A DNA stretch of 64,000 nt from a virus. Location: the IMG/VR virus record IMGVR_UViG_3300035698_010625, positions 41,619 through 105,618 of that record. One strand, 5' to 3'. Within the stretch, counting starts at the first letter, position 1; each line of letters opens with the position of its first letter. Both the position numbers and the translations under genes were made by a program. Below are positions 9,259 to 21,560 of this stretch, piece after piece. The notes below the pieces were generated by a model. That model did not search any database. It had not been told where the DNA came from and saw only the letters and a list, made by a program, of their open reading frames with translations.

Positions 9259-9333
9259 GTGGCCGTGGCCGAATGGTTTAGGTGCCTGACTGTGAATCAG
9301 ATTATATGGGTTCAATTCCCATCGGTCACCCCA
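9259..9333 (+). tRNA. tRNA-His(GTG)
   Basis: Cloverleaf, loop CT-GTG-AA, C73, CCA; no encoded G-1. Confidence 0.93.
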
Positions 9334-9348
9334 ATGAAAATTTACAAT

Positions 9349-9425
9349 GCCCTTCTAGCTAAACTGGACAAGGCCCTCGGCTACGAACTGAGAGATTGAA
9401 GGTTCGAATCCTTCGGAGGGTACCA
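9349..9425 (+). tRNA. tRNA-Arg(ACG)
   Basis: Cloverleaf, CT-ACG-AA, TTCGAAT, CCA. Confidence 0.93.
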
Positions 9426-9441
9426 TATTAAGGAGTTTGTT

Positions 9442-9600
9442 ATGAGTAAATGGGATTACCCCAAGACTAAGAAGAATTCTGATGGAGCAAAACTGACTGC
9501 TGCTGAATTACGCGCACAAAGAAAAGCTCATCGGAAAGCAATTAAAGCTACTGCTCATACTGAACTCAAGACGAAGAAAAATAAAGATCAAATTAAGTAA
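9442..9600 (+). CDS. Small Lys-rich protein
   Basis: AAGGAG RBS; MSKWDYPKTKK... Confidence 0.55.
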   Translation: MSKWDYPKTKKNSDGAKLTAAELRAQRKAHRKAIKATAHTELKTKKNKDQIK

Positions 9601-9605
9601 CAATT

Positions 9606-9682
9606 GGGTGCTTCGTATAACGGCACATTATGTCGGACTCTTAATCCGAACGATCTGGGTTCGAATCCCAGGGTACCCACCA
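9606..9682 (+). tRNA. tRNA-Lys(CTT)
   Basis: TCGGA-CT-CTT-AA-TCCGA, CCA. Confidence 0.92.
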
Positions 9683-9697
9683 AACAAAGGTATTATT

Positions 9698-9970
9698 ATG
9701 GAATTCACTGCTGAACTTGCTAAACAAATAGTTGAAGAAGATCATGATGATTGGGAACAAGTTAATGAAGAATCTTCTAATTCTTCCCGATGGCATACTC
9801 ATTACAGTGGTGTTTATAAAAATACATTAACTGGAAAATACTATGAATTTATTTGGCAGCGTGGTTCTACTGAATATCAAGATGAAGGTACAGAATTTTA
9901 CACTGACCCAATAGAAGCTGTAGAAGTTATTGAAAAATCAGTAACTGTAATGCGCTGGGTTGCTGTTTAG
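9698..9970 (+). CDS. Conserved phage hypothetical protein
   Basis: SRWHTHYSGVYK...G.TEYQD motif; true ATG lies after the tRNA. Confidence 0.7.
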   Translation: MEFTAELAKQIVEEDHDDWEQVNEESSNSSRWHTHYSGVYKNTLTGKYYEFIWQRGSTEYQDEGTEFYTDPIEAVEVIEKSVTVMRWVAV

Positions 9971-10065
9971 TTTGTACGCGGACGGTACTGCTTGGCAGTC
10001 CACTTGAATATCTTGTGGGTCACTGCACAGTCCGGGTTGAAGAACCTTAAACTTAACTAACAATT

Positions 10066-10141
10066 GCCGGTGAAGCAATCAGGGTATTGCAACTCGTTGT
10101 CTGCGAGAGATAGGAGGGTTCGAGTCCCTTCATCGGCGCCA
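10066..10141 (+). tRNA. tRNA-Asp(GTC)
   Basis: Loop TT-GTC-TG, G73, CCA. Confidence 0.85.
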
Positions 10142-10147
10142 ATTTTT

Positions 10148-10223
10148 GGGGGATTAGCTCATCTGGGAGAGCGTCTGTTTTGCAAGCAGAAGGTGATCGG
10201 TTCGAGTCCGATATCTTCCACCA
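10148..10223 (+). tRNA. tRNA-Ala(TGC)
   Basis: G3:U70 pair, TT-TGC-AA, CCA. Confidence 0.95.
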
Positions 10224-10258
10224 TTTTACTAGAAAGATTCATATACTTTCTAGACATT

Positions 10259-10336
10259 CGTTCGGTAGCTCAGCCTGGTTAGAGCACCCGTCTGATACGC
10301 GGTAGGTCGAAGGTTCAACTCCTTCTCGAACGACCA
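10259..10336 (+). tRNA. tRNA-Ile(GAT)
   Basis: CT-GAT-AC loop, canonical D and T arms, CCA. Confidence 0.88.
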
Positions 10337-10341
10337 ATTTA

Positions 10342-10446
10342 AAGAGCTTAGGTGTAGAAACGAGAATGCACCTTTAAGAAAACCTTGTTGCTGGGCTACC
10401 CGATAAATCATCTTCTCAGATGTATGCAACACAAACTTCAGCTCTT
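10342..10446 (+). ncRNA. Orphan structured RNA
   Basis: Closing stem AAGAGCT/AGCTCTT enclosing AGGTGTA/TGCACCT and branched TGTTGC/GCAACA stems. Confidence 0.5.
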
Positions 10447-10450
10447 CCTT

Positions 10451-10581
10451 TTGTACTGTCATGCGGGGTCGCCTCGGTGACGAAAGTGCTAGCGGGTACC
10501 GTCTTAGTAACGGTTTCACGAGGTGCAGGACCTCGGGGGTTTTCAGTTTCCACAATCGGGCTAGCTAAAACTGAAGTACAA
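10451..10581 (+). ncRNA. Orphan structured RNA with twin GCTAGC loops
   Basis: TTGTAC/GTACAA closing stem, long CGGGGTC-GCCTC-GTGA rod, TTCAGTTT/AAACTGAA hairpin. Confidence 0.55.
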
Positions 10582-10593
10582 TTTTATTACAAT

Positions 10594-10670
10594 GCTACGT
10601 TCGTCTAATGGACTAGGACTCTGGGTTTTCACTTCAGATAATATCGGTTCGAATCCGATACGTAGTACCA
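10594..10670 (+). tRNA. tRNA-Glu(TTC)
   Basis: Glu-type D arm TCGTCTAA...AGGAC, TT-TTC-AC, CCA. Confidence 0.9.
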
Positions 10671-10678
10671 ATTTCAAT

Positions 10679-10754
10679 TCCTAGTTAGTATTCTTGGTGA
10701 GCACGGGTGACTGTTAATCACTTCAGGTAGGTTCGAATCCTACACTAGGAGCCA
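10679..10754 (+). tRNA. tRNA-Asn(GTT)
   Basis: GGTGA-CT-GTT-AA-TCACT, G73, CCA. Confidence 0.92.
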
Positions 10755-10761
10755 AATCAAT

Positions 10762-10836
10762 GAGAGTTTAGTTCAAGTTAGAACATCTGGCGCAATAGTC
10801 AGAAGATGCTGGTATCGAATCCAGTCCCTTTCACCG
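10762..10836 (+). ncRNA. tRNA-like RNA with 8-nt non-canonical anticodon loop
   Basis: D arm GTTC/GAAC, TCTGG-CGCAATAG-TCAGA, T-like arm GCTGG/CCAGT; weak acceptor, ends ACCG. Confidence 0.6.
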
Positions 10837-10842
10837 AATAAT

Positions 10843-10928
10843 GGATGTGATGTACCGGTGGTGGTATAGCGGGCTGTAACCCCGTGGCTCTTATGGGCGA
10901 GTAGGTTCGACTCCTTCCACATCCACCA
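10843..10928 (+). tRNA. tRNA-Tyr(GTA)
   Basis: CT-GTA-AC, long variable arm, CCA. Confidence 0.9.
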
Positions 10929-11016
10929 ATTTCGTTGGCAGTAAGGTCACGCATTGAGATTGACCTCCTAGTAATAGGTACCTGATGGGTAAATTAAAAA
11001 GTGCGATTTCAAATTC

Positions 11017-11094
11017 CGGTGATTAGCTCAGCCTGGTTAGAGCTCTCCGTTTGGGGCGGAGTTGCCAGAGGTTCGAATCCTCTATCACCGACCA
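11017..11094 (+). tRNA. tRNA-Pro(TGG)
   Basis: CTCCG-TT-TGG-GG-CGGAG, C1-G72, CCA. Confidence 0.95.
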
Positions 11095-11187
11095 ATAACT
11101 AATTATCTAATGTGCTTGCCGGCATATGCGGATGATTGCACGAACTTCTATTGATAACAAGCGGTAACTTGTAATCATAAGATGAGT

Positions 11188-11251
11188 TAATTAGTAGTTT
11201 AACGGTAGATCGCCTGGCTGGAAGATGCGGGTTCGAATCCTGTCTAATTAC
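11188..11251 (+). ncRNA. tRNA-like RNA with vestigial anticodon arm
   Basis: TAATTAG/CTAATTA acceptor, D loop AACGGT, GCGGG-TTCGAAT-CCTGT; about 10 nt in place of the anticodon arm; no CCA. Confidence 0.55.
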
Positions 11252-11267
11252 TTTCGTGATTTACAAC

Positions 11268-11342
11268 AGTTCCTTAACTCAGAGGCAGAGTATCGCTTTT
11301 ACACAGCGAAGGTCGAGATTTCGAAATTCTCAGGAACTACCA
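11268..11342 (+). tRNA. tRNA-Val(TAC)
   Basis: TCGCT-TT-TAC-AC-AGCGA, CCA. Confidence 0.9.
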
Positions 11343-11409
11343 GTAACTAATCAACAGCTCGATGGGAGTCTTGCTATTTGATTGCACAGCGTCTTACTCC
11401 CATAAGATT

Positions 11410-11478
11410 TATTGATAGTGTAATGGATGCACACTGGGGTTTAAACCTGGAAGTACGGTTCGATTCCGTGATTAATAA
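11410..11478 (+). ncRNA. Degenerate tRNA-like RNA with TTA at the anticodon position
   Basis: TATTGAT/ATTAATA acceptor, GTGT/GCAC D arm, CTGGG-GTTTAAA-CCTGG, TTCGATT T loop; no CCA. Confidence 0.5.
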
Positions 11479-11530
11479 CTTGGGCTGTGATTTACAAATC
11501 GCTTGAGCAACTGCTCGCGTACAATACAAT

Positions 11531-11618
11531 GGGAGTGTGGTGGAATTGGTATACACATTGGTCTTAGAAACCAACGACTGTAATGGTCACGCAGGTTCGA
11601 CTCCTGTCACTCCTACCA
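11531..11618 (+). tRNA. tRNA-Leu(TAG)
   Basis: Leu D arm GGTGGAATTGGTATACAC, CT-TAG-AA, variable arm, CCA. Confidence 0.95.
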
Positions 11619-11624
11619 ATCAAT

Positions 11625-11692
11625 GTTCGATTAGCATAATGCAATGCGGCAAGTACTTGTAGAAGAAAGCTCGAATCTTTCATCGAACTCCA
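11625..11692 (+). ncRNA. Anticodon-less tRNA mimic (68 nt, CCA end)
   Basis: GTTCGAT/ATCGAAC acceptor, GCAT/ATGC D arm, GCAAG-TA-CTTGT, GAAAG-CTCGAAT-CTTTC, T-CCA. Confidence 0.75.
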
Positions 11693-11701
11693 AATTTAAA
11701 C

Positions 11702-11775
11702 GCTCAATTAGTTCAATGGTAGAACAACGGCCCGGTAAGTCGTTAACGTAAGTTCGATTCTTACATTGAGCACCA
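11702..11775 (+). tRNA. tRNA-Thr(GGT), C33 variant
   Basis: ACGGC-CC-GGT-AA-GTCGT, CCA. Confidence 0.85.
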
Positions 11776-11781
11776 ATTAAT

Positions 11782-11858
11782 GCCCGGTTCGTCTAAATAT
11801 TAGGACCTCTGCCATATTTGAGCAGAAAATAAAAGTGAGATTCTTTTACCGGACACCA
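11782..11858 (+). ncRNA. tRNA mimic with 9-nt anticodon loop
   Basis: Glu-like D arm, TCTGC-CATATTTGA-GCAGA, AAAAG-TGAGATT-CTTTT, A-CCA. Confidence 0.7.
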
Positions 11859-11864
11859 AACAAT

Positions 11865-11937
11865 GCCAAGGTCGTCTAATAATCTAAGACCCTCTCGTGA
11901 TAGAGAGAAATGAGGTGTAAATCCCCCCGAGGCACCA
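11865..11937 (+). ncRNA. tRNA mimic with 6-nt anticodon loop
   Basis: Glu-like D arm, CTCTC-GTGATA-GAGAG, acceptor GCCAAGG/CCGAGGC, A-CCA. Confidence 0.65.
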
Positions 11938-11943
11938 AACAAT

Positions 11944-12019
11944 GCTGGAGTCGTCTAACGGCTAGGACTTTACATTCTCAGTGTAAACAATGCGAGTTCG
12001 AATCTCGTCTCCAGTACCA
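11944..12019 (+). tRNA. tRNA-Glu(CTC)
   Basis: TTACA-TT-CTC-AG-TGTAA, CCA. Confidence 0.9.
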
Positions 12020-12024
12020 AATCT

Positions 12025-12111
12025 GGATTGATCCGCTGGGTAGGCCGGCAGCACGGTTTGAACCCGTGGGTGACCGAAAGGTTAGGGGTTCGACTCCTCA
12101 TCTCTCCGCCA
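12025..12111 (+). tRNA. tRNA-Ser(TGA)
   Basis: CACGG-TT-TGA-AC-CCGTG, GAAA-capped variable arm, G73, CCA; acceptor mismatches at pairs 4-5. Confidence 0.82.
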
Positions 12112-12118
12112 ATTTTAT

Positions 12119-12194
12119 CCTTCGCTCGTCTAATGTTAAGACACCAAACCGTGGAGGTTTGGGGATAGAGGTTTGATTCCTTTGCTTAGGACCA
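12119..12194 (+). ncRNA. tRNA mimic with extended anticodon stem
   Basis: CCAAACC-GTGGA-GGTTTGG arm, AGAGG-TTTGATT-CCTTT, acceptor CCTTCGC/GCTTAGG, A-CCA. Confidence 0.68.
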
Positions 12195-12202
12195 ATTTTA
12201 AT

Positions 12203-12253
12203 GACTACTTCCTATACGTAGGTTAATAACTGAAAAGTTAAGAGTGGTCACCA
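12203..12253 (+). ncRNA. 51-nt mini-tRNA-like RNA
   Basis: 7-bp GACTACT/AGTGGTC + A + CCA; two tetraloop hairpins CCTA-TACG-TAGG and TAACT-GAAA-AGTTA. Confidence 0.6.
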
Positions 12254-12347
12254 AGTTATCCCACACTCATCGAATGGTACGGTAAACGTTAAGAAACGTT
12301 TCGTGGGGAGTTTATCAGAAAGCCGTGACAGATAGACAACTAACAAT

Positions 12348-12421
12348 AGCTGCATAGCATAGTGGTAATGCGGGGGTCTTTGAAACCTCTCAGTAAGGTT
12401 CGATTCCTTATGCGGCTGCCA
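12348..12421 (+). tRNA. tRNA-Gln(TTG)
   Basis: GGGGT-CT-TTG-AA-ACCTC, G73, CCA. Confidence 0.92.
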
Positions 12422-12425
12422 ATTT

Positions 12426-12497
12426 TGATGTGGATATAATCTATCCCTTGTGCGGGTGCCCCTAGTAATAGGTCAAGGCAGCAAACTGCTCACATCA
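12426..12497 (+). ncRNA. Orphan four-way-junction RNA
   Basis: TGATGTG/CACATCA closing stem; arms GATA/TATC, CTTG/CAAG (containing CCTA-GTAA-TAGG) and GCAG-CAAA-CTGC. Confidence 0.45.
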
Positions 12498-12507
12498 GAT
12501 TTAATAT

Positions 12508-12594
12508 GGAAGATTAACTAGACAGGGTTCTAGAGCTGTTTGCTAAACAGATGGTACCGCAAGGTATGAGTTTCGAATACTCAATTTTCCGCCA
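12508..12594 (+). tRNA. tRNA-Ser(GCT)
   Basis: TT-GCT-AA loop, GCAA-capped variable arm, G73, CCA. Confidence 0.88.
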
Positions 12595-12623
12595 AACATA
12601 AAGAAAAATTAAGTATTAACAAT

Positions 12624-12698
12624 GGGACTCAGGTGTAACTGGGTGCACGGCGGACTTTTAATCCGTAAGGACAGGGTTCAAGCCCTGGGGTCCCACCA
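12624..12698 (+). tRNA. tRNA-Lys(TTT)
   Basis: GCGGA-CT-TTT-AA-TCCGT, CCA. Confidence 0.92.
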
Positions 12699-12785
12699 AA
12701 TGTAAATGGAAATGCTTCGGCATTGTAAAACTCACCGAAAGGTTTCCACCCAAGTGTGGATATAAAGAAGTTCCGATTAGTCAAT

Positions 12786-12859
12786 GCGTCTAAGTACAAG
12801 GTGTATCCTCGGGTTTCCAACCCGTAGTGAGTGGGTTTCGATTACCCCTAGTCGCTCCA
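12786..12859 (+). tRNA. tRNA-Gly(TCC)
   Basis: CGGG-TT-TCC-AA-CCCG, GCG acceptor, U73, CCA; irregular D and T arms. Confidence 0.75.
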
Positions 12860-12864
12860 ACAAT

Positions 12865-12937
12865 AGTTATCTAGCTCAACTGGCAGAGCACTAGCTTCAT
12901 ACGTTAGGGAATCTCGGTTCAAATCCGAGGGTAACTA
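12865..12937 (+). tRNA. tRNA-Met/Ile2(CAT), elongator type
   Basis: CTAGC-TT-CAT-AC-GTTAG; CCA not encoded (ends CAA). Confidence 0.85.
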
Positions 12938-12943
12938 CAATCT

Positions 12944-12951
12944 TATAAATA
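12944..12951 (+). promoter_or_regulatory. T4-type late promoter
   Basis: TATAAATA upstream of the ORF at 12978. Confidence 0.7.
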
Positions 12952-12977
12952 CTCTTTTAATAAACGAGTATCAGAAA

Positions 12978-13232
12978 ATGCAAACTTTTAAAAGTTTCAC
13001 CGAAGGAAATGTCGTTAAATTTCCTAAGAAGAAAAAACAAACCCACGATGAAATTACTGGATTGCCAATTGATTCACGTCTTCCAGATACCCCAGACGAA
13101 TGGATGGTTGTATCAAAGGATGAGAGTGTAGCATATAGCACTTCACCAACTCGTCAAGAAGCACAGAAAAAACTTAAGACGTATATGATGAAGACAGGTA
13201 AGAGAGATCTTAAAGTCATCAAATTTGGCTAA
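12978..13232 (+). CDS. Putative internal head protein (capsid-targeting-like leader)
   Basis: MQTFKSFTE N-terminus; late promoter upstream. Confidence 0.6.
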   Translation: MQTFKSFTEGNVVKFPKKKKQTHDEITGLPIDSRLPDTPDEWMVVSKDESVAYSTSPTRQEAQKKLKTYMMKTGKRDLKVIKFG

Positions 13233-13238
13233 GATAAT

Positions 13239-13270
13239 CCTCGCCAAGAAGGTCTAAACCATATATAATG
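13239..13270 (+). promoter_or_regulatory. Sigma70-type promoter, copy 1
   Basis: TCGCCA-N17-TATAAT; 30/32 identical to 19805-19836. Confidence 0.7.
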
Positions 13271-13280
13271 ATATAACAAA

Positions 13281-13352
13281 GCGGGTATAGCTCAGTGGTA
13301 GAGCGGAACGTTGCCAACGTCCAGGTCGAGAGTTCGAATCTCTCTACCCGCT
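13281..13352 (+). tRNA. tRNA-Gly(GCC)
   Basis: GCGGGTA acceptor, TT-GCC-AA, U73; CCA not encoded. Confidence 0.92.
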
Positions 13353-13562
13353 CTAATTTAGGATTATATGATGAATTTGGGACTAACAAGTGATTGTGAG
13401 GCAGAAGCATATTTTGATAGCGCTGATACTTACATCAAACAATACAACGCTACTTATATGTTTGAGAATAGTTCTGCGAGAGTCCGAACTATCATTGCTG
13501 AATATTTTGCTAATCTAGATAATAAAACTATTTGGCTTTGGAAAACTAAGAGTGATTGAATC

Positions 13563-13781
13563 ATGCGCCTTATCATTTCGCGGACTAACAATGACAGCAC
13601 TTTGGACTTCGAAGTTCATGATGCACGTTGGGTTACTTTTAGTGATAAAATGAAAGCATTTGCTTGGACTCGTCCGGGTAATAAGCTTGGAATTTACTTC
13701 TCCGAGGAATATGTCAATCGCCGCTTTGTGAACATCTTTTGCATTAGCGCGCTTGAGAACATGCACTGGCAGGTTAAGTGA
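13563..13781 (+). CDS. Hypothetical protein
   Basis: ORF in a small coding block within the tRNA array. Confidence 0.5.
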   Translation: MRLIISRTNNDSTLDFEVHDARWVTFSDKMKAFAWTRPGNKLGIYFSEEYVNRRFVNIFCISALENMHWQVK

Positions 13782-13791
13782 GGATTACATT

Positions 13792-13983
13792 ATGTGGATT
13801 CGATTTGAAGAGAAACAACCCAAACAAGATAAAGACCTTTATTACTTCTTCGATGTAGTAGGTGTTCACTCAGGGCGCTATTACGGCGGTGATACATTTC
13901 AAGGCCGAAGAGGTTTTCTCAATGGTGACGTTACTCATTGGCAATATGATAAAGGGCAGGGAAAACCTGCTGAACCAAAATGA
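13792..13983 (+). CDS. DUF551-like small protein
   Basis: MWIRFEEKQP...VTHW.....P motif. Confidence 0.6.
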   Translation: MWIRFEEKQPKQDKDLYYFFDVVGVHSGRYYGGDTFQGRRGFLNGDVTHWQYDKGQGKPAEPK

Positions 13984-13988
13984 ATAAT

Positions 13989-14065
13989 GCAAGAGTGGCT
14001 CGACTGGTGAAGGCCGGCGTCTTATATGCGTCTATATGTGGGTTCGAATCCCGCCTCTTGTACCA
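13989..14065 (+). tRNA. tRNA-Ile(TAT)
   Basis: GGCGT-CT-TAT-AT-GCGTC, A73, CCA. Confidence 0.88.
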
Positions 14066-14073
14066 AAATATTT

Positions 14074-14150
14074 CAGGGTATAAGTCAGTCTGGTAGACAC
14101 CCCGGTTTGGAACTGGGAAGCCGTTGGTTCGAATCCAACTACCCTGACCA
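14074..14150 (+). tRNA. tRNA-Pro(TGG), second copy with A37
   Basis: CCCGG-TT-TGG-AA-CTGGG, C1-G72, CCA. Confidence 0.9.
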
Positions 14151-14167
14151 TTTAAAGAGAGTACATT

Positions 14168-14428
14168 ATGCTTACATTCAATATTAAAGATTTCTTTTGT
14201 TGGCATAGTATTCAAAAAGAAGAGTCATTTGAAGCTTTTCATGCAAGAGCAGAAGCACTGCATGAAACTTATCAACATTGGACTCCTGTAAATGAAATTG
14301 AAAGAACAAATAGAGCAGTATGTTTTGTATCTTTTATTAACAATCACCCAAAAATCGTAAATCCATATACTGGTAAAACAAAAAAACAATTTTCTTTAAC
14401 GGAATATCCTATATCTACCTTGTCTTAA
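14168..14428 (+). CDS. Hypothetical protein
   Basis: ORF with a GAGAG RBS. Confidence 0.5.
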   Translation: MLTFNIKDFFCWHSIQKEESFEAFHARAEALHETYQHWTPVNEIERTNRAVCFVSFINNHPKIVNPYTGKTKKQFSLTEYPISTLS

Positions 14429-14451
14429 AGGTTGTATAATGATTATTCAAT

Positions 14452-14527
14452 ACACGGTAAGCAATTATGGTTAATGCGCTGGCTTGAAGTCCCAGATAAC
14501 TAAGTTCGATTCTTAGACCGTGTACCA
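14452..14527 (+). tRNA. tRNA-Phe(GAA)
   Basis: CTGG-C-TT-GAA-GT-C-CCAG, CCA. Confidence 0.83.
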
Positions 14528-14550
14528 ATTTATTATGGAGTGACTGTGAT

Positions 14551-15252
14551 ATGTTTGCTGATTTTTGCACTGATCATTTCTCGACGAGTAACAATGCACA
14601 TTACAGAAATCCGCGAACTGTTGACCAAAATGTAATTGCTAATGAGACAATGCTATTTAGCGCATCTCCAGAATTTGCTACTGCAAATGGTGGCCCACTT
14701 ACTGCTTACTTTCTCTCCAAGCTTTTTGATGGTGGATTTGAAAGCATTGATACTCGAGGAATGCATTGGGTCATTGATACTCGCTCGCACATGCTGATGC
14801 CAGGTCAATTTCCTTCTATTCCAGGTTGGCATTGTGATGCTTGGGAGCGAGATCCAAAGACACAACAACCACTTTTATGGCAGCACCCACATGGTACCGC
14901 TATGCATTTTGTAATGACACTTGGTACTAATGATGATGGTGTATCACTTACAAAATTCATACTTCCTTTTGGTGTGCCGATTCGTGTATCTTACGATCCA
15001 TCCAAAGTTTGGGGTTCTGTAAACGAATCAATTGAACACCAAATTGAAGATCTCGTTATATCACCAGATAGAATTATTAGTGCGCCTTCAGGGACACTCA
15101 TTTCGTTTGGACAAAACATATTACATACGGCTAGTGTAGCTACCAGTAAAGGCTGGCGCTTCTTTGCTCGTATAAGTTTAATGACAAATCCACCACTCAA
15201 CAAAATTCGAAAACAGGTACAAGTTTACGCTGATTCAAATGTTGGTTGGTAA
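14551..15252 (+). CDS. 2OG-Fe(II) oxygenase-like protein
   Basis: PGWHCD (HxD), distal LH and R.F.R motifs. Confidence 0.7.
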   Translation: MFADFCTDHFSTSNNAHYRNPRTVDQNVIANETMLFSASPEFATANGGPLTAYFLSKLFDGGFESIDTRGMHWVIDTRSHMLMPGQFPSIPGWHCDAWERDPKTQQPLLWQHPHGTAMHFVMTLGTNDDGVSLTKFILPFGVPIRVSYDPSKVWGSVNESIEHQIEDLVISPDRIISAPSGTLISFGQNILHTASVATSKGWRFFARISLMTNPPLNKIRKQVQVYADSNVGW

Positions 15253-15338
15253 ATGAATTAAGGGAAACGTTGGTTCGAGTCCAACTCCTGCGCTGGTGCA
15301 AAGGATCGTAATTGATGGCCAAGACACCCTTACGTTAC
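15249..15338 (+). ncRNA. Circularly permuted tRNA-like RNA (YrlA/Y-RNA-like architecture)
   Basis: Order T arm (GTTGG-TTCGAGT-CCAAC), loop-closed acceptor, D-like arm, all closed by TAAGGG/CCCTTA. Confidence 0.6.
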
Positions 15339-15341
15339 AAT

Positions 15342-15415
15342 GTTGATATGGCAGAATGGTTATGCCGTGGCTTGCAAACCCACTTACTCTGGTTCGATTC
15401 CGGATATCAACTCCA
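15342..15415 (+). tRNA. tRNA-Cys(GCA)
   Basis: TT-GCA-AA, U73, CCA. Confidence 0.92.
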
Positions 15416-15667
15416 AGATAAGGCTTTAGCCGCAGCAGAGTAGTCAGGCATGACATAAAAGGTCGAAATGAAAAAGTTTAGCCGGCTCGACCAGCTTTAT
15501 TTCTGAGTTCAAAGGTGGTCCTGAGCACGATGGATATGCACCAATTGTAAAAAATGTCTGTGATGGTGATTATACCGAATTCTCAGTTTGTTTGGAATGT
15601 GGTACTCTGAAAGGTACTTTCCCGGTTGATGATCCTGTTTGGAATGATGAAGAAGAAGATTAACAAT

Positions 15668-15737
15668 GCGCCGCGCTCTGGGTAAGCAGTATGGTTTCCA
15701 ATGCCTCGCGTGTGGAGTTCGATTCTCTGGCGGCGTG
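15668..15737 (+). ncRNA. Degenerate tRNA-Gly(TCC)-like RNA
   Basis: GCGCCGC/GCGGCGT acceptor, TGGAG-TTCGATT-CTCTG, TT-TCC-AA in a poorly paired arm; no CCA. Confidence 0.5.
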
Positions 15738-15762
15738 CACCTGTAATAGATTAAAGAATAAT

Positions 15763-15838
15763 AAGAGTATAGTATAATGGCTCATTACCCCGGGCTCTGA
15801 ACTCGGTAATCTAGGTTCGAATCCTAGTACTCTTGCCA
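15763..15838 (+). tRNA. tRNA-Gln(CTG)
   Basis: CCGGG-CT-CTG-AA-CTCGG, G73, CCA. Confidence 0.93.
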
Positions 15839-15845
15839 AATATAC

Positions 15846-15920
15846 GCCTGCTAAGCATTAATGGTGATGCACTGGTTTTGTAATCCAGAGAAGAGGGATC
15901 GTTACCTTCAGTCGGCACCA
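15846..15920 (+). tRNA. tRNA-Thr(TGT)
   Basis: TT-TGT-AA, CCA; atypical T loop ATCGTTA. Confidence 0.83.
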
Positions 15921-15923
15921 AAT

Positions 15924-15997
15924 CGCGAGATGTTGAAATGGCATCCTGCTGGGCTCATAACCCTTCGTTGGCGGTTCAACTCCGTCTTTCGCTACCA
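15924..15997 (+). tRNA. Initiator tRNA-fMet(CAT)
   Basis: C1:U72 mismatch, GGG/CCC in the anticodon stem, CT-CAT-AA, CCA. Confidence 0.87.
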
Positions 15998-16110
15998 ACT
16001 TTGTGAGATCGTCAAGTGTAATTATGTTAAAGCCCGAGATGATGACATTACAAAATGTACGAATCGGTTAATCTTTAACTAGCACAAGGGACATCTCACA
16101 AACTTTTTTA

Positions 16111-16251
16111 TGTTGTAACTGCAAGGATAATGCAGGGTGGTTGGAGAGCTTGTGAGGGTGTACAACCTTTTATCCACAGGTATAAAGTTAGCTTTAACAA
16201 ATCGAGGCGCTTTATAAATCTCTAGTGAAGTTCGATTCTTCATTACAACAC
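16111..16251 (+). ncRNA. tRNA-like RNA with ~85-nt branched domain replacing the anticodon arm
   Basis: TGTTGTAA/TTACAACA acceptor, TGCA-AGGATAA-TGCA arm, TGAAG-TTCGATT-CTTCA T arm. Confidence 0.62.
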
Positions 16252-16258
16252 TTTCAAT

Positions 16259-16346
16259 GGGAGTATGGTGGAATTGGTATACACAGCAGACTTAAAATCT
16301 GCCGCCTGTAATGGGCTCGGGGGTTCGAATCCCTCTACTCCTACCA
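16259..16346 (+). tRNA. tRNA-Leu(TAA)
   Basis: GCAGA-CT-TAA-AA-TCTGC, Leu D arm, CCA. Confidence 0.95.
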
Positions 16347-16786
16347 AATTAAGGTAAATATGATGCAGGAAACAAGCACTAAAACTATAGCAGATAAAGA
16401 AGCATTGATTCTGTCTGCTGGTGAATGTTATCCAGATACATCTAGTTTTATACGAGATGAAGTTGTGAAAGACATTAATTTTAAGCTAGTTGATAAGATG
16501 TGGGGCAAATAACGAGTGTTGCTCATGCTCCAACCTTCATATACAATGGTGAATGTAAACCTTGTGTAAGTAGGTTGTACCGTAGCTATTTGAGATACAC
16601 TTATATAACTGCTGCACACATTAATGCACTGGTGTATGACATGGTAGTGGAATTAGATGATTTACTTATAGATGCTTCTGAATTTCACCCATATATGATG
16701 GCGATACCACAATTAGCTGAAGAAGAATATATTGAATTTAATCGAATTGCATTCAAACTTCGATTTGCATTTTAAAGATTAACAAT

Positions 16787-16856
16787 GCCCCGGGTGTTGG
16801 ATACACAGCAGAGGTTTCTACCCTCAGCCTTCTGGGTTCGACTCCTAGTCGGGGTA
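16787..16856 (+). tRNA. tRNA-Arg(TCT) with shortened D arm
   Basis: GAGG-TT-TCT-AC-CCTC, GCCCCGG/TCGGGGT acceptor, canonical T arm. Confidence 0.72.
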
Positions 16857-16874
16857 CACCATTTAAGGTTCATT

Positions 16875-17153
16875 ATGAAATATCTTCTTGAGTTGTATTG
16901 GATGTGGAGGGACCGCCAAAGAGCAGAAGCTGAACTCGATAAATTCATAGCTGTTAAAAAGTGGGATGCTAGCATTCGTTGGAATAATGACAAATCGGTT
17001 GAAAACATTCTTTATATTGGTCTTGAAAATGGCCGTGGTGAACGTAAAATACAAATTCATGATTATGGATTAACCCGTACTTATTCTAAGTCGAAGGCCC
17101 ATCTCATTTATACAAAGTACGTTTTGCCATGGCAGCATAAAATAAATGAATAA
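16875..17153 (+). CDS. Hypothetical protein
   Basis: ATG after the tRNA with an AAGG RBS. Confidence 0.55.
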   Translation: MKYLLELYWMWRDRQRAEAELDKFIAVKKWDASIRWNNDKSVENILYIGLENGRGERKIQIHDYGLTRTYSKSKAHLIYTKYVLPWQHKINE

Positions 17154-17259
17154 TAACCTTTATCTTAAGGTCCTATATTGATATAATATACTTATTGGAA
17201 CGCACCTATTTTGCTGTCAACGCAATGTTGGCTTTTTTGTAATTAAACGGGGATACATT

Positions 17260-18084
17260 ATGATTACGCGAAACAAATTGGCTGTTGCTATTCTTGCTGC
17301 AGTTTCCATTACTACCGCAGCACACGCATCTGAAGTTACTACAATCACCGCTGGCTCCAAGGGCGGTGCATACGCTACTTATGGCAACAATCTTGCAACT
17401 ATGCTCACCCAGAATGATTGGAAGAGTAAGGTTATTCGCAGTAAGGGTTCAATTCAGAATATTGCCCGTCTTGTAGATGGCTCAGCACAAATTGGTTTCA
17501 CCCAGGGCGATGCTTTGCAGCTCTCAAAGGCTGGTGGTAAGATTGATATTCTTGGAGCACTTGGAATGGAATGTGCTTTCATTGTTTACAGTAAGAAGGG
17601 TAAGGTCACTGACGAAGATCATCTTCAGAATGAGGGTGTGAAAATTGCTGTTGGTAAGAAAGGTACTGGTTCACAAGCAACGTGGTCTTACATGGTTCAG
17701 CTAGAACCTGCATACGGTAATGCATCTGCACAGTATACTGGCGGAGCTCGCGCACTTGGCGCACTCAAAGCAGGCACTGTTGACGCTGTTCTCTTTGTCA
17801 CCGATCCCACTAATCTGAGTCATAAGCTTATTCAAGCAGTAAATGGTGATCCAGACCTCGATTTTCTAGACGTTGATGACAGTGACTTGAATGATGATCT
17901 ACCTAATGGCACGCCTGTCTATGAATTCAAAGAAGTTGACACTGAAACGGGTGCTTTCGCGGATGACGTAGATACTATCTGTACGCCTTTGCTAGTAATT
18001 GCTAGTGCAGATGCTGACGAAGACATGCTTGATGATGCTGCAGGAATTATGCTAAGCAATCGCAATGCGGTGCTTGGTAAGTAA
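17260..18084 (+). CDS. TAXI-family TRAP transporter solute-binding protein
   Basis: Signal peptide (AHA|S), G.KGGAY, SKGSIQNI..L..G.AQIGFTQGD, G..GTGS, ALKAGTVDA motifs. Confidence 0.85.
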   Translation: MITRNKLAVAILAAVSITTAAHASEVTTITAGSKGGAYATYGNNLATMLTQNDWKSKVIRSKGSIQNIARLVDGSAQIGFTQGDALQLSKAGGKIDILGALGMECAFIVYSKKGKVTDEDHLQNEGVKIAVGKKGTGSQATWSYMVQLEPAYGNASAQYTGGARALGALKAGTVDAVLFVTDPTNLSHKLIQAVNGDPDLDFLDVDDSDLNDDLPNGTPVYEFKEVDTETGAFADDVDTICTPLLVIASADADEDMLDDAAGIMLSNRNAVLGK

Positions 18085-18107
18085 CAATGCAAAAGATAGT
18101 CGTTCCC

Positions 18108-18305
18108 AAGTTAGTACTTAATCGCTCTACGGAGAGGAAAGTCGGGACAAGCGGCATGATCGTGTGGGAGGAGTTAACTCCGCTTTACCACCGTGACATA
18201 GCTTGCAACACAAACAGGATTAGACAAATTGTGCATCAATGATATCCGGGTTGTGGCCAATAGACGAATGATAGCATAGAACAGGATCCCGCTTACGGAT
18301 TACTT
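18108..18305 (+). ncRNA. rnpB: Miniature RNase P RNA (catalytic domain only)
   Basis: CR-I GAGGAAAGTCGGG (18134) pairs with CR-V ACAGGATCCCGCTTAC (18281) to form P4 with the bulged U; CR-IV-like AGACGAATGAT. Confidence 0.85.
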
Positions 18306-18594
18306 ACTACTTACAAGGAGCAAATGATGAGCAAGGTATACCCTCACTCAAGCACTAAGCAACGCGAACGATACGTGAAACAAAACGCTATTAAAGGCGA
18401 ACGCTCTATCGGGCAAACTGATGCTTCAGTAGGCTGGTATGGACTTACAGTAAATTGGAAAGCTATTGTGCGTGGTGCACCGTGTTACATTACAACTAAC
18501 TAAAAGGAGCAAGATATGCGCTTGATGAATTTAGAGCACCTCCTTAAATTGTGATTTTTGGTAAAACACTAATTCACACTTAAGGAAACATCTA

Positions 18595-18972
18595 ATGAAA
18601 ATCACTTATCTCAAAATTAAAGTAAAGTCACTAGCAGCAGAGTCACGCATGATCCGCCAAGAGGAGTTGAAACTCAAACGTCGATACCAGGCGATTAAAC
18701 TGTTGGACAATCAGTATGACACTGCAGCAGAAGAGGGAGACATAAGGTCTACTCGTTTAGGTCTTTATGAACACCGTACAGATGATGTACGTCGAGAGTC
18801 GCGTGTAGCTAATATTGCTTACGGTCTACTTCGAGGAAGAGAGTATAGCAAAATTGAGCGAGGAGTTCGGGAGTTTAATCAACCGAAATGGACACGCGTT
18901 ACAAAGTTGATTGAGAAGTATTCAAACAGTGAGGAGCAGAAGGTTAAAGCTTTTCAACTGATTGAGCAGTAA
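18595..18972 (+). CDS. Conserved phage hypothetical protein
   Basis: LKIKVKSLAAESRMIR...R.ANIAYGLLRGREYSKIE motif common in large phages. Confidence 0.75.
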   Translation: MKITYLKIKVKSLAAESRMIRQEELKLKRRYQAIKLLDNQYDTAAEEGDIRSTRLGLYEHRTDDVRRESRVANIAYGLLRGREYSKIERGVREFNQPKWTRVTKLIEKYSNSEEQKVKAFQLIEQ

Positions 18973-18983
18973 ATATCATGACG

Positions 18984-19006
18984 GAGCGCTTCGGCGCTCT
19001 CGTTTT
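18984..19006 (+). terminator. UUCG hairpin terminator
   Basis: GAGCGC-TTCG-GCGCTC followed by T residues. Confidence 0.75.
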
Positions 19007-19075
19007 GGCTGACACGGTGACTACCTGGCTTTCAATCCAAAGGAGTTTAGGGTTCGATTCCCTTATCAGCCACCA
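19007..19075 (+). ncRNA. tRNA-like RNA with reduced D arm (TTC in loop)
   Basis: GGCTGA/TCAGCC acceptor, AGGG-TTCGATT-CCCT, A-CCA. Confidence 0.6.
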
Positions 19076-19220
19076 AATTTTAGGAGAGGCATTATGAGTA
19101 TATTTGCTTGGATTGTTTTTCCATTTTTATTCCCCGTGGTTGTCGCAATGTTTTGGGTGCTGACACATGTGGATCCATACACTGGTAAGGTTCATTGGAA
19201 TCTTACGTGGTAAACGATAT

Positions 19221-19510
19221 CATGTAGTAGTTTAAATGTTGGCATTATGAGGAAAGGTGAAGATTATTTGAAAGTAAAATTAAGTTAGTAGCAATTCTGT
19301 AGTGGTGATGTAACGAGACGTGTAGGTAAAAACGTGAGCCAAATGAAAGATTGGACAGGCATCATCATCGAGGGCGTTGCGAATTCTTCTTTTGAACCCT
19401 TTAATTAGTAACCTTTACTTACGTGTCACACGGAAAAACGCTAGGAACCCCCCCGCTTACGCGTCTCTTAATCCTGGATATCCACGGTTCAATACCGGGC
19501 TACATGGCCA
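19221..19510 (+). ncRNA. 290-nt ornate tRNA-like RNA with 194-nt D-loop insertion
   Basis: CATGTAG/CTACATG-G-CCA acceptor, split D arm, 27-nt anticodon loop, T arm, 13-bp long-range pairing 19315-19327/19455-19467. Confidence 0.75.
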
Positions 19511-19534
19511 ATTTCTTGAAACGGAGTTTATAAT

Positions 19535-19780
19535 ATGAATGATTATTTTAATGCGTTTATTATGATTTTGGTTATAGCGATAGTAACAAATGTTGGTTGG
19601 ATTATTAATTATGATGATCTTAAAACACTTCATGAAAAGGCGTTAAGTATTCATAAGATTGAAGTCATGCAACATAGACAAGCTATTTGTCGTAGTGCAA
19701 CAGCTGAACACGCAACTAATACTGCTACACTCTTCGAAGCAATCAATAAGCTCAATTCTGCTGCTAAGGCTGCAGAATAA
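19535..19780 (+). CDS. Small membrane-anchored protein
   Basis: N-terminal TM helix; GGAG RBS. Confidence 0.6.
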   Translation: MNDYFNAFIMILVIAIVTNVGWIINYDDLKTLHEKALSIHKIEVMQHRQAICRSATAEHATNTATLFEAINKLNSAAKAAE

Positions 19781-19804
19781 TTTACTTTAATGGCATAAGA
19801 TATA

Positions 19805-19836
19805 CCTTGCCAAGAAGGTCGAAACCATATATAATG
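19805..19836 (+). promoter_or_regulatory. Sigma70-type promoter, copy 2 (upstream of the large RNA)
   Basis: TTGCCA-N17-TATAAT. Confidence 0.75.
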
Positions 19837-19844
19837 GTACTATA

Positions 19845-20730: not shown

Positions 20731-20939
20731 TGTTTACTTATGGCAGGTTGTACGTTCTCTGCCTTAAACGTACTGGCTTTCTGGGGAGGCTCAGATAACC
20801 GGGTAGTTCACCTAACTACCTGCCATAAGTAAATAGGAAGATAATATGAACATTGATAAAGTTGAACTTCAGAAGATCTTTCTTGAAGTTTTTACTAAAC
20901 ACCCAGAAGCTGCAAAGATTTTTCTAAAGGGTAATAACT

Positions 20940-21239
20940 ATGAGCACGACCCCTACAAGAAGTTTGAGAGTTGAAAGATCATATACAAATAAGTTTAACC
21001 AAGTAATTGAAGTTGGTGATGAAGTAGTATTTGTTGCAACTTCTTGGGGTGGTACTGATATTCGCCAAGGTGTTTATCTTGGATATTACCCACGCACTGG
21101 TTGGGATGGTCGCCCTGCACTTCATGCTGCTAGTGTATCATACATTGGTAAGGAGTGGGATGGAAGAAAATGGATTGACGATGCAGTACTTCATTCTGTT
21201 CTTGAACTCGGTCGTGTTTTCAAAATTGAGAAAGTATAA
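20940..21239 (+). CDS. Hypothetical protein (paralog of 21239)
   Basis: N.FNQVIEVGDEV...R.GVY.GY...G.VFKI. Confidence 0.7.
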   Translation: MSTTPTRSLRVERSYTNKFNQVIEVGDEVVFVATSWGGTDIRQGVYLGYYPRTGWDGRPALHAASVSYIGKEWDGRKWIDDAVLHSVLELGRVFKIEKV

Positions 21240-21556: not shown

Positions 21557-21560
21557 CAAT

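What the first reader, a model, noticed from the sequence alone, without database searches (positions are those of the whole stretch)
10762..12194. Series of tRNA mimics with intact stems but systematically wrong anticodon loops
Seen: anticodon loops of 8 nt (10762), vestigial (11188), 2 nt (11625), 9 nt (11782), 6 nt (11865) and 5 nt on a 7-bp stem (12119). Most anticodon, D and T stems still pair, and four end in CCA. Three share the Glu-type TCGTCTAA...AGAC D arm of the neighbouring tRNA-Glu genes, suggesting duplication and specialisation. Random decay would break stems rather than only loops, so selection for shape without decoding is inferred.
Basis: partly seen in the sequence, partly recalled or inferred. 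Interest (0 to 1): 0.78.

Follow-up and report, generated by a model that had tools for sequence, protein, structure and literature searches.

The report
Non-decoding tRNA look-alikes in phage array
Between the real genes of its roughly 30-gene tRNA cluster, an uncultured T4-like phage carries at least six tRNA-derived genes that keep the cloverleaf core but lack a usable anticodon loop and mostly lack the 'elbow' contacts; uniform decay does not produce this pattern, so they are probably non-decoding tRNA-shaped RNAs like the unexplained ones of phages T5 and T4, but no relatives exist to prove it.

Summary
All six elements are real tRNA derivatives on the + strand. A covariance model built from the window's own tRNAs scores them 15-44 bits (canonical tRNAs score 57-74). 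Each one exactly fills a spacer in the array. Their anticodon arms are 9-19 nt long instead of 17.

The claim that only the loops are wrong is incorrect. Four have acceptor-stem mismatches, two lack CCA, and five have lost the D-loop GG and/or T55/C56, which are invariant in the 21 canonical tRNAs used as baseline.

The losses are not uniform. Seven core positions (U8, A14, A21, G53, C61, T54, A58) are kept 41/42. The four elbow-contact positions are kept 7/24 (p about 2e-9). Simulated uniform decay, filtered by the same kind of detection, keeps both classes equally. This favours selection for a non-decoding cloverleaf (about 0.5) over plain pseudogene decay (about 0.35).

No orthologues exist in any collection I could reach, so covariation and the 'normal tRNA in relatives' refutation test could not be run.

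The closest documented analogues are T5 RNA1-3 and T4 RNAC/RNAD, which are stable tRNA-region RNAs of unknown function.

Earlier unchecked notes of this scan report anticodon-less tRNA look-alikes in several other phage genomes.

The parts
10762..10835 (+). c10762: tRNA-like element with an 8-nt anticodon loop, an 8-nt T loop and no GG in the D loop. The acceptor stem is 5/7 paired and includes G3-U70. The 3' end reads ACCG, not CCA.
   Evidence: R1 20.9 bits; Rfam tRNA 28.9 bits; ARAGORN 4-base anticodon 'caat'; cloverleaf is the MFE structure, z -2.9; segmentation
11188..11254 (+). c11188: 64-67-nt tRNA-like element with a perfect 7-bp acceptor stem, GG in the D loop and a canonical TTCGAAT T loop. 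The anticodon arm is reduced to about 9 nt and there is no CCA.
   Evidence: Rfam tRNA 37.3 bits; R1 27.9 bits; segmentation; the MFE structure is not a cloverleaf
11625..11692 (+). c11625: 68-nt tRNA-like element with perfect acceptor, D and T stems and CCA. The anticodon arm is a 12-nt palindrome. There is no GG, and the T loop is CTCGAAT.
   Evidence: R1 44.3 bits, E 1.8e-10; cloverleaf is the MFE structure
11782..11858 (+). c11782: Glu-type D arm, 5-bp anticodon stem with a 9-nt loop, T loop TGAGATT, no GG, acceptor 6/7, CCA.
   Evidence: R1 34.0 bits; cloverleaf is the MFE structure, z -2.4
11865..11938 (+). c11865: Glu-type D arm, 5-bp anticodon stem with a 6-nt loop, weak T arm (loop TGTAAAT), acceptor 5/7 with mismatches at 4-69 and 5-68, CCA. 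This is the most degenerate of the six.
   Evidence: R1 15.3 bits, E 0.015; not found by ARAGORN even at 60% thresholds; the MFE structure lacks the acceptor and T arms
12119..12194 (+). c12119: Glu-type D arm, 7-bp anticodon stem closing a 5-nt loop with TGG at its centre, T loop TTTGATT, acceptor 5/7 (mismatches at 4-69 and 5-68), CCA.
   Evidence: R1 36.9 bits; cloverleaf is the MFE structure
11410..11481 (+). c11410: neighbouring low-scoring tRNA with a normal 7-nt loop and anticodon UUA (it would read the UAA stop codon). The elbow nucleotides are intact and there is no CCA.
   Evidence: ARAGORN tRNA-Stop(tta); Rfam 30 bits; R1 26.4 bits
10594..10670 (+). Canonical tRNA-Glu(UUC) carrying the same TCGTCTAA...GGAC D arm.
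11944..12019 (+). Canonical tRNA-Glu(CUC), directly downstream of c11782 and c11865, with the same D arm.
9259..21650 (+). The whole tRNA array in which the elements sit: 29 ARAGORN tRNAs, about 13 aberrant tRNA-like elements, a GOLLD RNA and an RNase P-like RNA.
   Evidence: no terminator-like site in 8800-13400

Best explanation
The six elements are tRNA-gene derivatives that sit in register inside a phage polycistronic tRNA array. They have been kept as non-decoding, tRNA-shaped RNAs. Shown: they keep the four cloverleaf stems and the structural core nucleotides (U8, A14, A21, G53-C61, T54-A58). Four of the six keep an encoded CCA. They are separated from their neighbours by the same few-nucleotide linkers as real tRNAs. 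Their anticodon arms have the wrong length (9-19 nt instead of 17). Five of six have lost the G18/G19 or T55/C56 contacts that lock the tRNA elbow. Inferred: they are transcribed with the array. RNase P (5' end) and 3' trimming or CCA repair then release them as stable RNAs of about 65-77 nt, as reported for the tRNA-like stable RNAs of phage T5. They cannot read codons and are poor ribosome ligands. Most speculative step: they act by occupying a protein that reads the acceptor, T-stem or D-stem part of tRNA. Candidates are a host tRNA-targeting defence enzyme or, for the three with a Glu-type D arm, a tRNA-Glu-specific enzyme. A more modest possibility is that they keep RNase P cleavage sites correctly spaced in the transcript.
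For: All six match a model trained on the window's own tRNAs (15-44 bits). Four fold into a cloverleaf as the MFE structure. D, anticodon and T stems are 94-100% paired, about the same as in the 21 canonical tRNAs. Core positions are kept 41/42, whereas elbow-contact positions are kept 7/24 (Fisher 2e-9). Simulated uniform substitution of the window's own tRNAs, filtered through relaxed ARAGORN, keeps both classes equally (0.79-0.92), so detection bias does not create the contrast. Length changes are concentrated in the anticodon arm (6 of 6), with canonical segment lengths almost everywhere else. No close paralogue exists (identity at most 0.67 against a background of 0.59), so these are not fresh duplicates. 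Precedents: the T5 record annotates RNA1 and RNA2 as 'tRNA-like stable RNA with unknown functions' and RNA3 as 'putative tRNA-like RNA' inside its tRNA region. These have the same kind of anatomy and score 11.7-16.3 bits with my model. RNA3 persists in about 350 T5-like records. T4 has rnaC and rnaD. Staphylococcal tRNA-Gly species that work outside the ribosome also lack G18, G19, U55 and C56 (PMC4574755). In related phages an elbow-less tRNA-Phe is kept with compensatory stem changes.
Against: Each element is broken in a different way, and there is no shared design of the anticodon arm. Acceptor stems have 1-2 mismatches in four of six, and two lack CCA. Model scores form a gradient (44 down to 15 bits), as expected for genes at different stages of decay. 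c11865 and c11188 do not fold as cloverleaves on their own. No homologue was found in about 240 related loci or anywhere else. Sister arrays are compact and mostly lack such elements, so the elements look lineage-specific and possibly short-lived. If the ancestors were already elbow-less decoding tRNAs (such tRNAs exist in relatives), the elbow loss does not measure time since inactivation and the contrast with the core becomes weaker. There is no expression data.
Confidence: 0.5

Rival explanations
1. They are plain pseudo-tRNAs: dead copies of array genes that are decaying and have not yet been deleted. They may be transcribed passively but have no role.
For: The defects are heterogeneous and cumulative: odd loops, acceptor mismatches, lost GG and T55/C56, missing CCA, and scores from 44 down to 15 bits. 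They are orphans with no counterpart in related arrays. The array contains redundant genes (two tRNA-Pro UGG; c12119 still has TGG at its loop centre), which points to duplication and turnover. Sporadic aberrant elements occur in other arrays, and one is present in L109 but absent from its sisters.
Against: Uniform decay cannot both randomise the elbow contacts (7/24 kept) and spare seven core positions (41/42) and three of the four stems. All six carry a length change in the anticodon arm, and only about two length changes lie elsewhere. About 13 dead genes (roughly 1 kb) would be a lot for a phage that is otherwise densely coded.
Confidence: 0.35
2. They are kept only as processing punctuation. 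The acceptor/T-arm minihelix plus CCA is retained so that RNase P still cuts at each unit and releases the neighbouring real tRNAs. The released RNA itself does nothing.
For: They sit in register, with 5-9-nt linkers like real tRNAs. Three of the six are directly preceded by CAAT, as real tRNA genes such as tRNA-Glu(CUC) also are. No terminator lies in 8800-13400, which is consistent with one long transcript. T stems, G53-C61 and T54-A58 are kept. It is established knowledge that an acceptor/T-arm minihelix with CCA is a sufficient RNase P substrate.
Against: This does not explain why U8, A14, A21, the D stems (26/27 pairs) and the anticodon stems (33/33 pairs) are kept. Acceptor stems, the part that RNase P needs most, are the least well kept. 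Related arrays manage with short linkers and no such units.
Confidence: 0.08
3. Some are still decoding tRNAs with unconventional loops, for example an 8-nt loop reading four bases (c10762) or compact loops that open on the ribosome (c12119 as tRNA-Pro UGG).
For: ARAGORN can draw c10762 with a 4-base anticodon, and c11625, c11782 and c12119 with 7-nt loops. Elbow-less tRNAs with normal loops appear to be functional in related phages.
Against: U33 is missing in c10762, c11625 and c12119. Position 37 is not a purine in c11782. The alternative folds need mismatches or several G-U pairs. Canonical tRNA-Pro(UGG) genes already exist twice in the array. Acceptor mismatches and lost elbow contacts add to the defects. 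The genome reads well under the standard code, with no sign of recoding.
Confidence: 0.05
4. The odd loops are assembly or sequencing indels in ordinary tRNA genes.
For: The contig is a single uncultured-virus assembly, and the read-level check could not be run.
Against: The changes are multi-nucleotide and all different (-8, -5, -1, +1, +2, +2 nt), are not in homopolymer runs, and come with many substitutions at conserved positions. Neighbouring tRNAs are intact. The 838-aa polymerase aligns end to end in one piece without frameshift.
Confidence: 0.02

Closest known systems
Phage T5 RNA1, RNA2 and RNA3 (NC_005859 30501-30644, 32959-33083, 33877-33949)
   Same: They lie inside a phage tRNA gene region, directly next to real tRNAs (RNA3 is 2 nt from tRNA-Asn). 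They have an acceptor-like stem, a T arm and CCA but a non-canonical D/anticodon region. RNA3 has an 8-nt T loop, as c10762 does. They score in the same low range with my tRNA model (11.7-16.3 bits). Their function is unknown.
   Different: No counterpart of the window's elements was recognised in T5. T5 has three such RNAs among about 24 tRNAs, whereas this phage has six or seven within 1.4 kb and about 13 in the array. The T5 RNAs are annotated as stable RNAs, and nothing is known about expression here. The T5 RNAs are further from a cloverleaf than c11625, c11782 and c12119.
Phage T4 RNAC and RNAD (species 1 and 2 RNAs; NC_000866 70908-71171)
   Same: They are small stable RNAs encoded at the end of the tRNA cluster of a T4-type phage, with roles still unknown (PMC3014915). 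RNAC has a tRNA-like T arm and RNAD ends in CCA.
   Different: They are 139 and 119 nt long and are not cloverleaves; only the T arm of RNAC matches my model (14.7 bits). There is no sequence relation.
Pseudo-tRNAs in large phage tRNA arrays
   Same: They are tRNA-derived, score below tRNA thresholds, cannot decode and are lineage-specific.
   Different: The losses here are sharply non-uniform (core 41/42 kept, elbow 7/24 kept), which simulated uniform decay does not give.
Staphylococcal non-proteinogenic tRNA-Gly (cell-wall glycine donors)
   Same: They are tRNAs that work outside the ribosome and lack G18, G19, U55 and C56 (PMC4574755). Five of the six elements here show the same elbow signature.
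   Different: Those tRNAs keep a normal 7-nt anticodon loop and perfect acceptor stems and are aminoacylated. Here the anticodon arm is abnormal and charging is untested.
Phage tRNAs with anticodon-loop substitutions proposed to evade host anticodon nucleases (van den Berg et al. 2023, PMC10264068)
   Same: They are phage array tRNAs whose anticodon loops differ from the norm, interpreted as part of the conflict over tRNA.
   Different: Those are point substitutions in 7-nt loops of tRNAs that still decode. Here the loop size and arm length are changed, so decoding is lost. A decoy for an anticodon nuclease would need a recognisable loop, and these elements lack one.

Membership tests
Canonical tRNA (Rfam RF00005) | Score at or above the family's gathering threshold (29 bits) | tested here: not met
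   Only c11188 passes (37.3 bits). c10762 scores 28.9. c11625, c11782, c11865 and c12119 are not reported even at E up to 10.
Canonical tRNA (Rfam RF00005) | 5-bp anticodon stem with a 7-nt loop carrying U33 and a purine at position 37 | tested here: not met
   The loops are 8, about 5 (vestigial), 2-4, 9, 6 and 5 nt. The alternative 7-nt folds lack U33 (c11625, c12119) or a purine at 37 (c11782).
Canonical tRNA (Rfam RF00005) | Elbow contacts G18, G19 with T55, C56 | tested here: not met
   Kept 7/24 in the six elements, and intact only in c11188. They are invariant in the 21 canonical tRNAs of the window.
Canonical tRNA (Rfam RF00005) | Cloverleaf stems and core nucleotides U8, A14, A21, G53-C61, T54-A58 | tested here: met
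   Core positions kept 41/42. D, anticodon and T stems are 94-100% paired. The acceptor stem is about 82-84% paired.
Phage tRNA-like stable RNAs (T5 RNA1-3 type) | Encoded within a phage tRNA gene cluster, on the same strand and directly next to real tRNAs | tested here: met
   for the window; for T5.
Phage tRNA-like stable RNAs (T5 RNA1-3 type) | Partial tRNA anatomy (acceptor stem, T arm, often CCA) with no usable anticodon arm | tested here: met
   for the window; for T5 RNA2 and RNA3.
Phage tRNA-like stable RNAs (T5 RNA1-3 type) | Accumulates as a discrete stable RNA in infected cells | not testable with these tools
Phage tRNA-like stable RNAs (T5 RNA1-3 type) | Sequence homology to the T5 or T4 RNAs | tested here: inconclusive
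   A search of window 10500-12500 against all phage records returned only matches to ordinary tRNAs among the rows listed. I made no direct pairwise comparison with T5 RNA1-3 or T4 rnaC/rnaD. The resemblance is one of kind, not of descent.
Decaying pseudo-tRNA | Defects spread without regard to structural role (neutral pattern) | tested here: not met
   Core 41/42 kept against elbow 7/24 kept. The uniform-decay simulation keeps both equally.
Decaying pseudo-tRNA | Orthologous position holds a normal tRNA in close relatives | not testable with these tools
   No relative closer than 66% (AAA protein) exists in the collections, and there are no orthologues by BLAST.
mascRNA-type tRNA-like small RNA (RF01684) | Match to the family model | tested here: not met
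   Weak RF01684 hits fall only on genuine tRNAs (9265, 16787, 21561) and none falls on the six elements.

The most novel reading that the evidence does not exclude
The phage makes a battery of dedicated tRNA decoys. These would be cloverleaf RNAs that have deliberately lost both features needed on the ribosome (anticodon loop and elbow) but keep the acceptor, T-stem and D-stem surfaces. They would soak up host enzymes that attack or handle tRNA, for example defence nucleases or, for the three with a Glu-type D arm, a tRNA-Glu-specific enzyme. That would give a function to the class of phage 'tRNA-like stable RNAs' left unexplained since T4 and T5.
Probability: 0.25. Interest if true: 0.8.

Novelty: new variant of a known kind. 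Interest (0 to 1): 0.55.

Why it matters
Phage tRNA clusters have been known for fifty years to encode small tRNA-like RNAs with no assigned role (T4 RNAC/RNAD, T5 RNA1-3). This array holds an unusually dense set of them. It also gives a quantitative signature: the structural core is kept, while the anticodon loop and elbow contacts are lost selectively. That signature separates maintained tRNA mimics from ordinary dead genes and can be applied to any phage array. If the elements are functional, they point to RNA decoys or regulators in the phage-host conflict over tRNA, alongside the recently recognised use of phage tRNAs against tRNA-cleaving defences. If they are pseudogenes, they show that phage arrays can carry about a third of their units as wreckage, which matters for counting phage tRNA repertoires.

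Tried and rejected
1. Finding orthologues. The 233-aa protein inside the array (14551-15252) is a widespread phage accessory gene and does not mark arrays. Single-protein pattern scans with it and with the DNA polymerase found nothing. The AAA protein upstream (6785-7756) gave 160 related loci from IMG/VR and JGI metagenomes, none above 60% identity (66% in the protein database). Several carry syntenic arrays, but neither the window's tRNAs nor its mimics have BLAST counterparts there. Exact 19-mer scans of IMG/VR with the anticodon arms of c12119 and c11625 gave one chance hit in coding DNA (L227) and none.

3. Recent duplication of the neighbouring tRNA-Glu genes: rejected, because identity is 0.63-0.66 against a background of 0.59. 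Only the D arm is shared, and that D arm also occurs in tRNA-Gln of relatives.

4. Detection bias as the cause of the core/elbow contrast: rejected by simulation.

5. Stop-codon recoding linked to the UUA-anticodon tRNA c11410: no sign of it. TAA is the main stop codon and the longest frames do not grow when it is read through.

6. A nuclease or homing cassette as the source of dead copies: there is no ORF of 80 aa or more in 10762-12194 other than a frame overlapping real tRNAs.

7. Hybrid genes from unequal crossing-over between tRNAs: considered unlikely, because c11625 and c11188 have perfect acceptor stems.

8. Restriction-site avoidance (TCGA in the T loop) as the cause of the T-loop changes: three of the six keep TCGA, and it would not explain the lost GG.

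9. No protein fold or complex prediction was needed.
Full report
CONTEXT. The window is the right-hand 64 kb of a single 105.6-kb virus contig. Its DNA polymerase is T4 gp43-like, 42% identical to those of cyanomyoviruses, so the source is a divergent, uncultured T4-type phage. ARAGORN finds 29 tRNA genes, all on the + strand, between 9259 and 21650. Rfam adds a GOLLD RNA at 20221-20727 (151.6 bits) and, below threshold, an RNase P class A-like match at 18110-18311. The finding covers the densest part of this array.

THE OBSERVATION. Relaxed ARAGORN draws cloverleaves for c10762 (a 4-base 'anticodon' in an 8-nt loop), c11625, c11782 and c12119, a poor one for c11188, and nothing for c11865. 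Rfam's general tRNA model reaches threshold only for c11188 (37.3 bits) and nearly for c10762 (28.9).

I built a covariance model (R1) from 21 canonical tRNAs of the window with an explicit cloverleaf. With filters off it finds all six on the + strand:
- c11625: 44.3 bits
- c12119: 36.9 bits
- c11782: 34.0 bits
- c11188: 27.9 bits
- c10762: 20.9 bits
- c11865: 15.3 bits (E 0.015)

The canonical tRNAs score 57-74 bits. Outside the array, relaxed ARAGORN gives about 0.25 calls per kb per strand. Inside these 1.4 kb it gives four on the + strand, each filling a spacer exactly. Four of the six fold into a cloverleaf as their minimum-energy structure, with z-scores like those of real tRNAs. Hand segmentation confirms the loop sizes, the four CCA ends and the shared TCGTCTAA...(A/G)GAC D arm.

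In the 21 canonical tRNAs, 99% of acceptor pairs are formed, GG is present in every D loop, and T54, T55, C56 and A58 are invariant. The six elements differ:
- Acceptor stems are mismatched in four: c10762 has two mismatches, c11782 one, and c11865 and c12119 two each at the same positions (4-69 and 5-68).
- Only c11188 keeps GG and a canonical T loop.
- c10762 and c11188 lack CCA.

So it is not true that only the loops are wrong. The 'systematic' loop defect is also partly a grouping effect. The array holds further aberrant elements with normal 7-nt loops: c11410 with anticodon UUA, 15846, 15924 and 12786.

IS IT DECAY? None of the elements has a close paralogue. Best identity to any other element is 0.61-0.67, against 0.59 +/- 0.05 between unrelated tRNAs of the array. 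They are therefore not fresh copies of the neighbouring tRNA-Glu genes. The shared D arm is the general Glu/Gln type and also occurs in tRNA-Gln of related phages.

The informative result is the distribution of losses. Seven structural core positions (U8, A14, A21, G53, C61, T54, A58) are kept in 41 of 42 cases. The four positions that make the D-loop/T-loop contacts (G18, G19, T55, C56) are kept in 7 of 24 (Fisher p about 2e-9). Five of the seven core positions are themselves unpaired, so this is not a stem-versus-loop effect.

I then simulated uniform substitution of the window's own tRNAs at rates of 5-30% and kept only copies that relaxed ARAGORN, but not strict ARAGORN, still detects. Core and elbow positions were retained equally (0.79-0.92). 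Detection bias therefore does not create the contrast.

Length changes are also concentrated. All six elements have an anticodon arm of the wrong length (-8, -5, -1, +1, +2, +2 nt), while nearly all other segments keep canonical lengths. A uniform neutral process cannot randomise the elbow, respect the core and spare three of the four stems all at once. Either the cloverleaf core has been under selection after decoding was lost, or the elbow and anticodon changes were themselves selected.

One caveat weakens this. Related phages have elbow-less tRNAs with normal anticodon loops. One orthologous pair, tRNA-Phe(GAA) at L109:15249 and L077:14113, differs by compensatory changes in two stems. Elbow loss may therefore have come before loss of decoding.

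RELATIVES. No close relative could be reached. The AAA protein 3 kb upstream of the array (phrog_1250) has its best match at 66% identity among 5.8 billion proteins. IMG/VR and JGI metagenome loci reach 56-60%. Several of them have a tRNA array directly after the AAA gene, so the layout is syntenic. Even the genuine tRNAs have no BLAST counterparts there.

In those arrays tRNAs score 52-78 bits, and only about 8-9% of tRNA-type hits are aberrant, against about 13 of 42 in the window. The aberrant ones include elements of the same kind:
- L109:11222-11352 has a perfect acceptor stem, CCA, a canonical T arm, the Glu-type D arm and about 65 nt in place of the anticodon arm. It is absent from the sister arrays L115 and L077.
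- L093:16792 and L101:16387 are armless units of 62-63 nt that end in CCA.

Such units therefore recur in phage arrays but turn over quickly. Exact scans of IMG/VR with the anticodon arms of c12119 and c11625 gave one chance match in coding DNA and none.

Assembly error is unlikely. The changes are multi-nucleotide, all different, outside homopolymer runs and accompanied by many substitutions. The 838-aa polymerase aligns in one piece.

KNOWN PARALLELS. The T5 RefSeq record annotates, inside its tRNA region, RNA1 and RNA2 as 'tRNA-like stable RNA with unknown functions' and the 73-nt RNA3 as 'putative tRNA-like RNA', 2 nt from tRNA-Asn. With my model they score 11.7, 16.3 and 14.7 bits. RNA3 has an acceptor stem, CCA, an 8-nt T loop like that of c10762, and a non-canonical D/anticodon region. 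It is present in about 350 T5-like records.

T4 encodes rnaC and rnaD at the end of its tRNA cluster, and their roles are still unknown (PMC3014915). Only the T arm of rnaC resembles a tRNA.

Staphylococcal tRNA-Gly species that donate glycine outside the ribosome lack G18, G19, U55 and C56 (PMC4574755). This shows that elbow loss can mark tRNAs withdrawn from translation.

The phage tRNAs proposed to evade anticodon nucleases carry point changes in normal 7-nt loops and still decode (PMC10264068), which is a different situation.

Earlier notes of this scan, unchecked, describe anticodon-less tRNA look-alikes in several other phage genomes. One of them supplied the T5 lead, which I verified.

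MECHANISM. Shown: the cloverleaf core is kept, the anticodon arm is unusable, the elbow contacts are lost, the elements are placed in register, and no terminator-like site lies in 8800-13400. Inferred: the elements are co-transcribed with the array, excised by RNase P and 3' trimming, and accumulate as small stable RNAs that cannot decode. Speculative: they bind proteins that read the acceptor, T-stem or D-stem face of tRNA. Candidates are host defence enzymes or, for the three with a Glu-type D arm, enzymes specific for tRNA-Glu. Alternatively they only keep RNase P sites correctly spaced.

I put about 0.5 on maintained non-decoding RNAs, 0.35 on plain pseudogenes, 0.08 on processing punctuation only, 0.05 on unusual decoders and 0.02 on artefact.

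VERDICT. This is a real feature and a denser, more cloverleaf-like variant of a known but unexplained kind, the phage tRNA-like stable RNAs. It remains unproven without homologues or expression data.

Noticed in passing
window 11410-11481: A well-formed low-scoring tRNA with a normal 7-nt loop and anticodon UUA, which would read the UAA stop codon. Its elbow is intact and it has no encoded CCA. TAA is the commonest stop codon of the genome (95 of 160 long frames), and reading it through does not lengthen the longest frames, so there is no sign of recoding. A second 'tta' call appears at 16179-16251 with relaxed ARAGORN.
   Followed up: partly
window 18110-18311: A match of about 200 nt to bacterial RNase P class A spanning the whole model (38.3 bits, E 3.9e-9, far below the gathering score of 100). 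This suggests a strongly reduced phage RNase P RNA. If it lacks the domain that reads the tRNA elbow, elbow-less units could still be processed.
   Followed up: no
window 20221-20727: GOLLD RNA (151.6 bits) with the array's only tRNA-Trp (20295-20369) embedded in it.
   Followed up: no
window 10967-10979 and 12461-12473: An identical 13-mer, CCTAGTAATAGGT (a small hairpin with a GTAA loop), occurs in two different spacers of the array. With one mismatch allowed, 0.03 matches are expected by chance.
   Followed up: partly
window 12786-12859, 15846-15920, 15924-15997, 12508-12594, 19007-19075, 15668-15739: Further tRNA-type elements that default ARAGORN misses (R1 scores 26.6, 42.9, 31.1, 29.2, 27.7 and 13.9 bits). 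12786 has a normal loop with anticodon UCC and may be the array's tRNA-Gly(UCC). 15846 (UGU) and 15924 (CAU) pass Rfam's threshold. 12508 has a 5-nt loop plus a long extra arm. 19007 lacks a D arm.
   Followed up: partly
L109:15249-15323 and L077:14113-14187: Orthologous tRNA-Phe(GAA) genes in two related phages that lack the D-loop GG and have the T loop CGCGATA. They differ by compensatory changes in the acceptor stem (G-C to A-T) and the anticodon stem (T-A to C-G). This is an elbow-less tRNA under selection.
   Followed up: partly
L109:11222-11352: A tRNA scaffold with a perfect acceptor stem, CCA, a canonical T arm and a Glu-type D arm, carrying about 65 nt in place of the anticodon arm. 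It is absent from the sister arrays L115 and L077. L094:339-424 is a similar expanded unit.
   Followed up: partly
L077:13149-13193, L115:14930-14974, L109:14368-14412; L115:11959-12007: Related arrays carry a COG2908 RNA motif (70-73 bits, above threshold) between tRNAs. One has a hammerhead type I-like match at 33.9 bits, against a threshold of 34.
   Followed up: no
window 9259-21650: The window's genuine tRNAs score lower against Rfam's tRNA model (30-68 bits, many at 40-55) than those of related arrays (52-74 bits). The whole set has drifted from the consensus.
   Followed up: no
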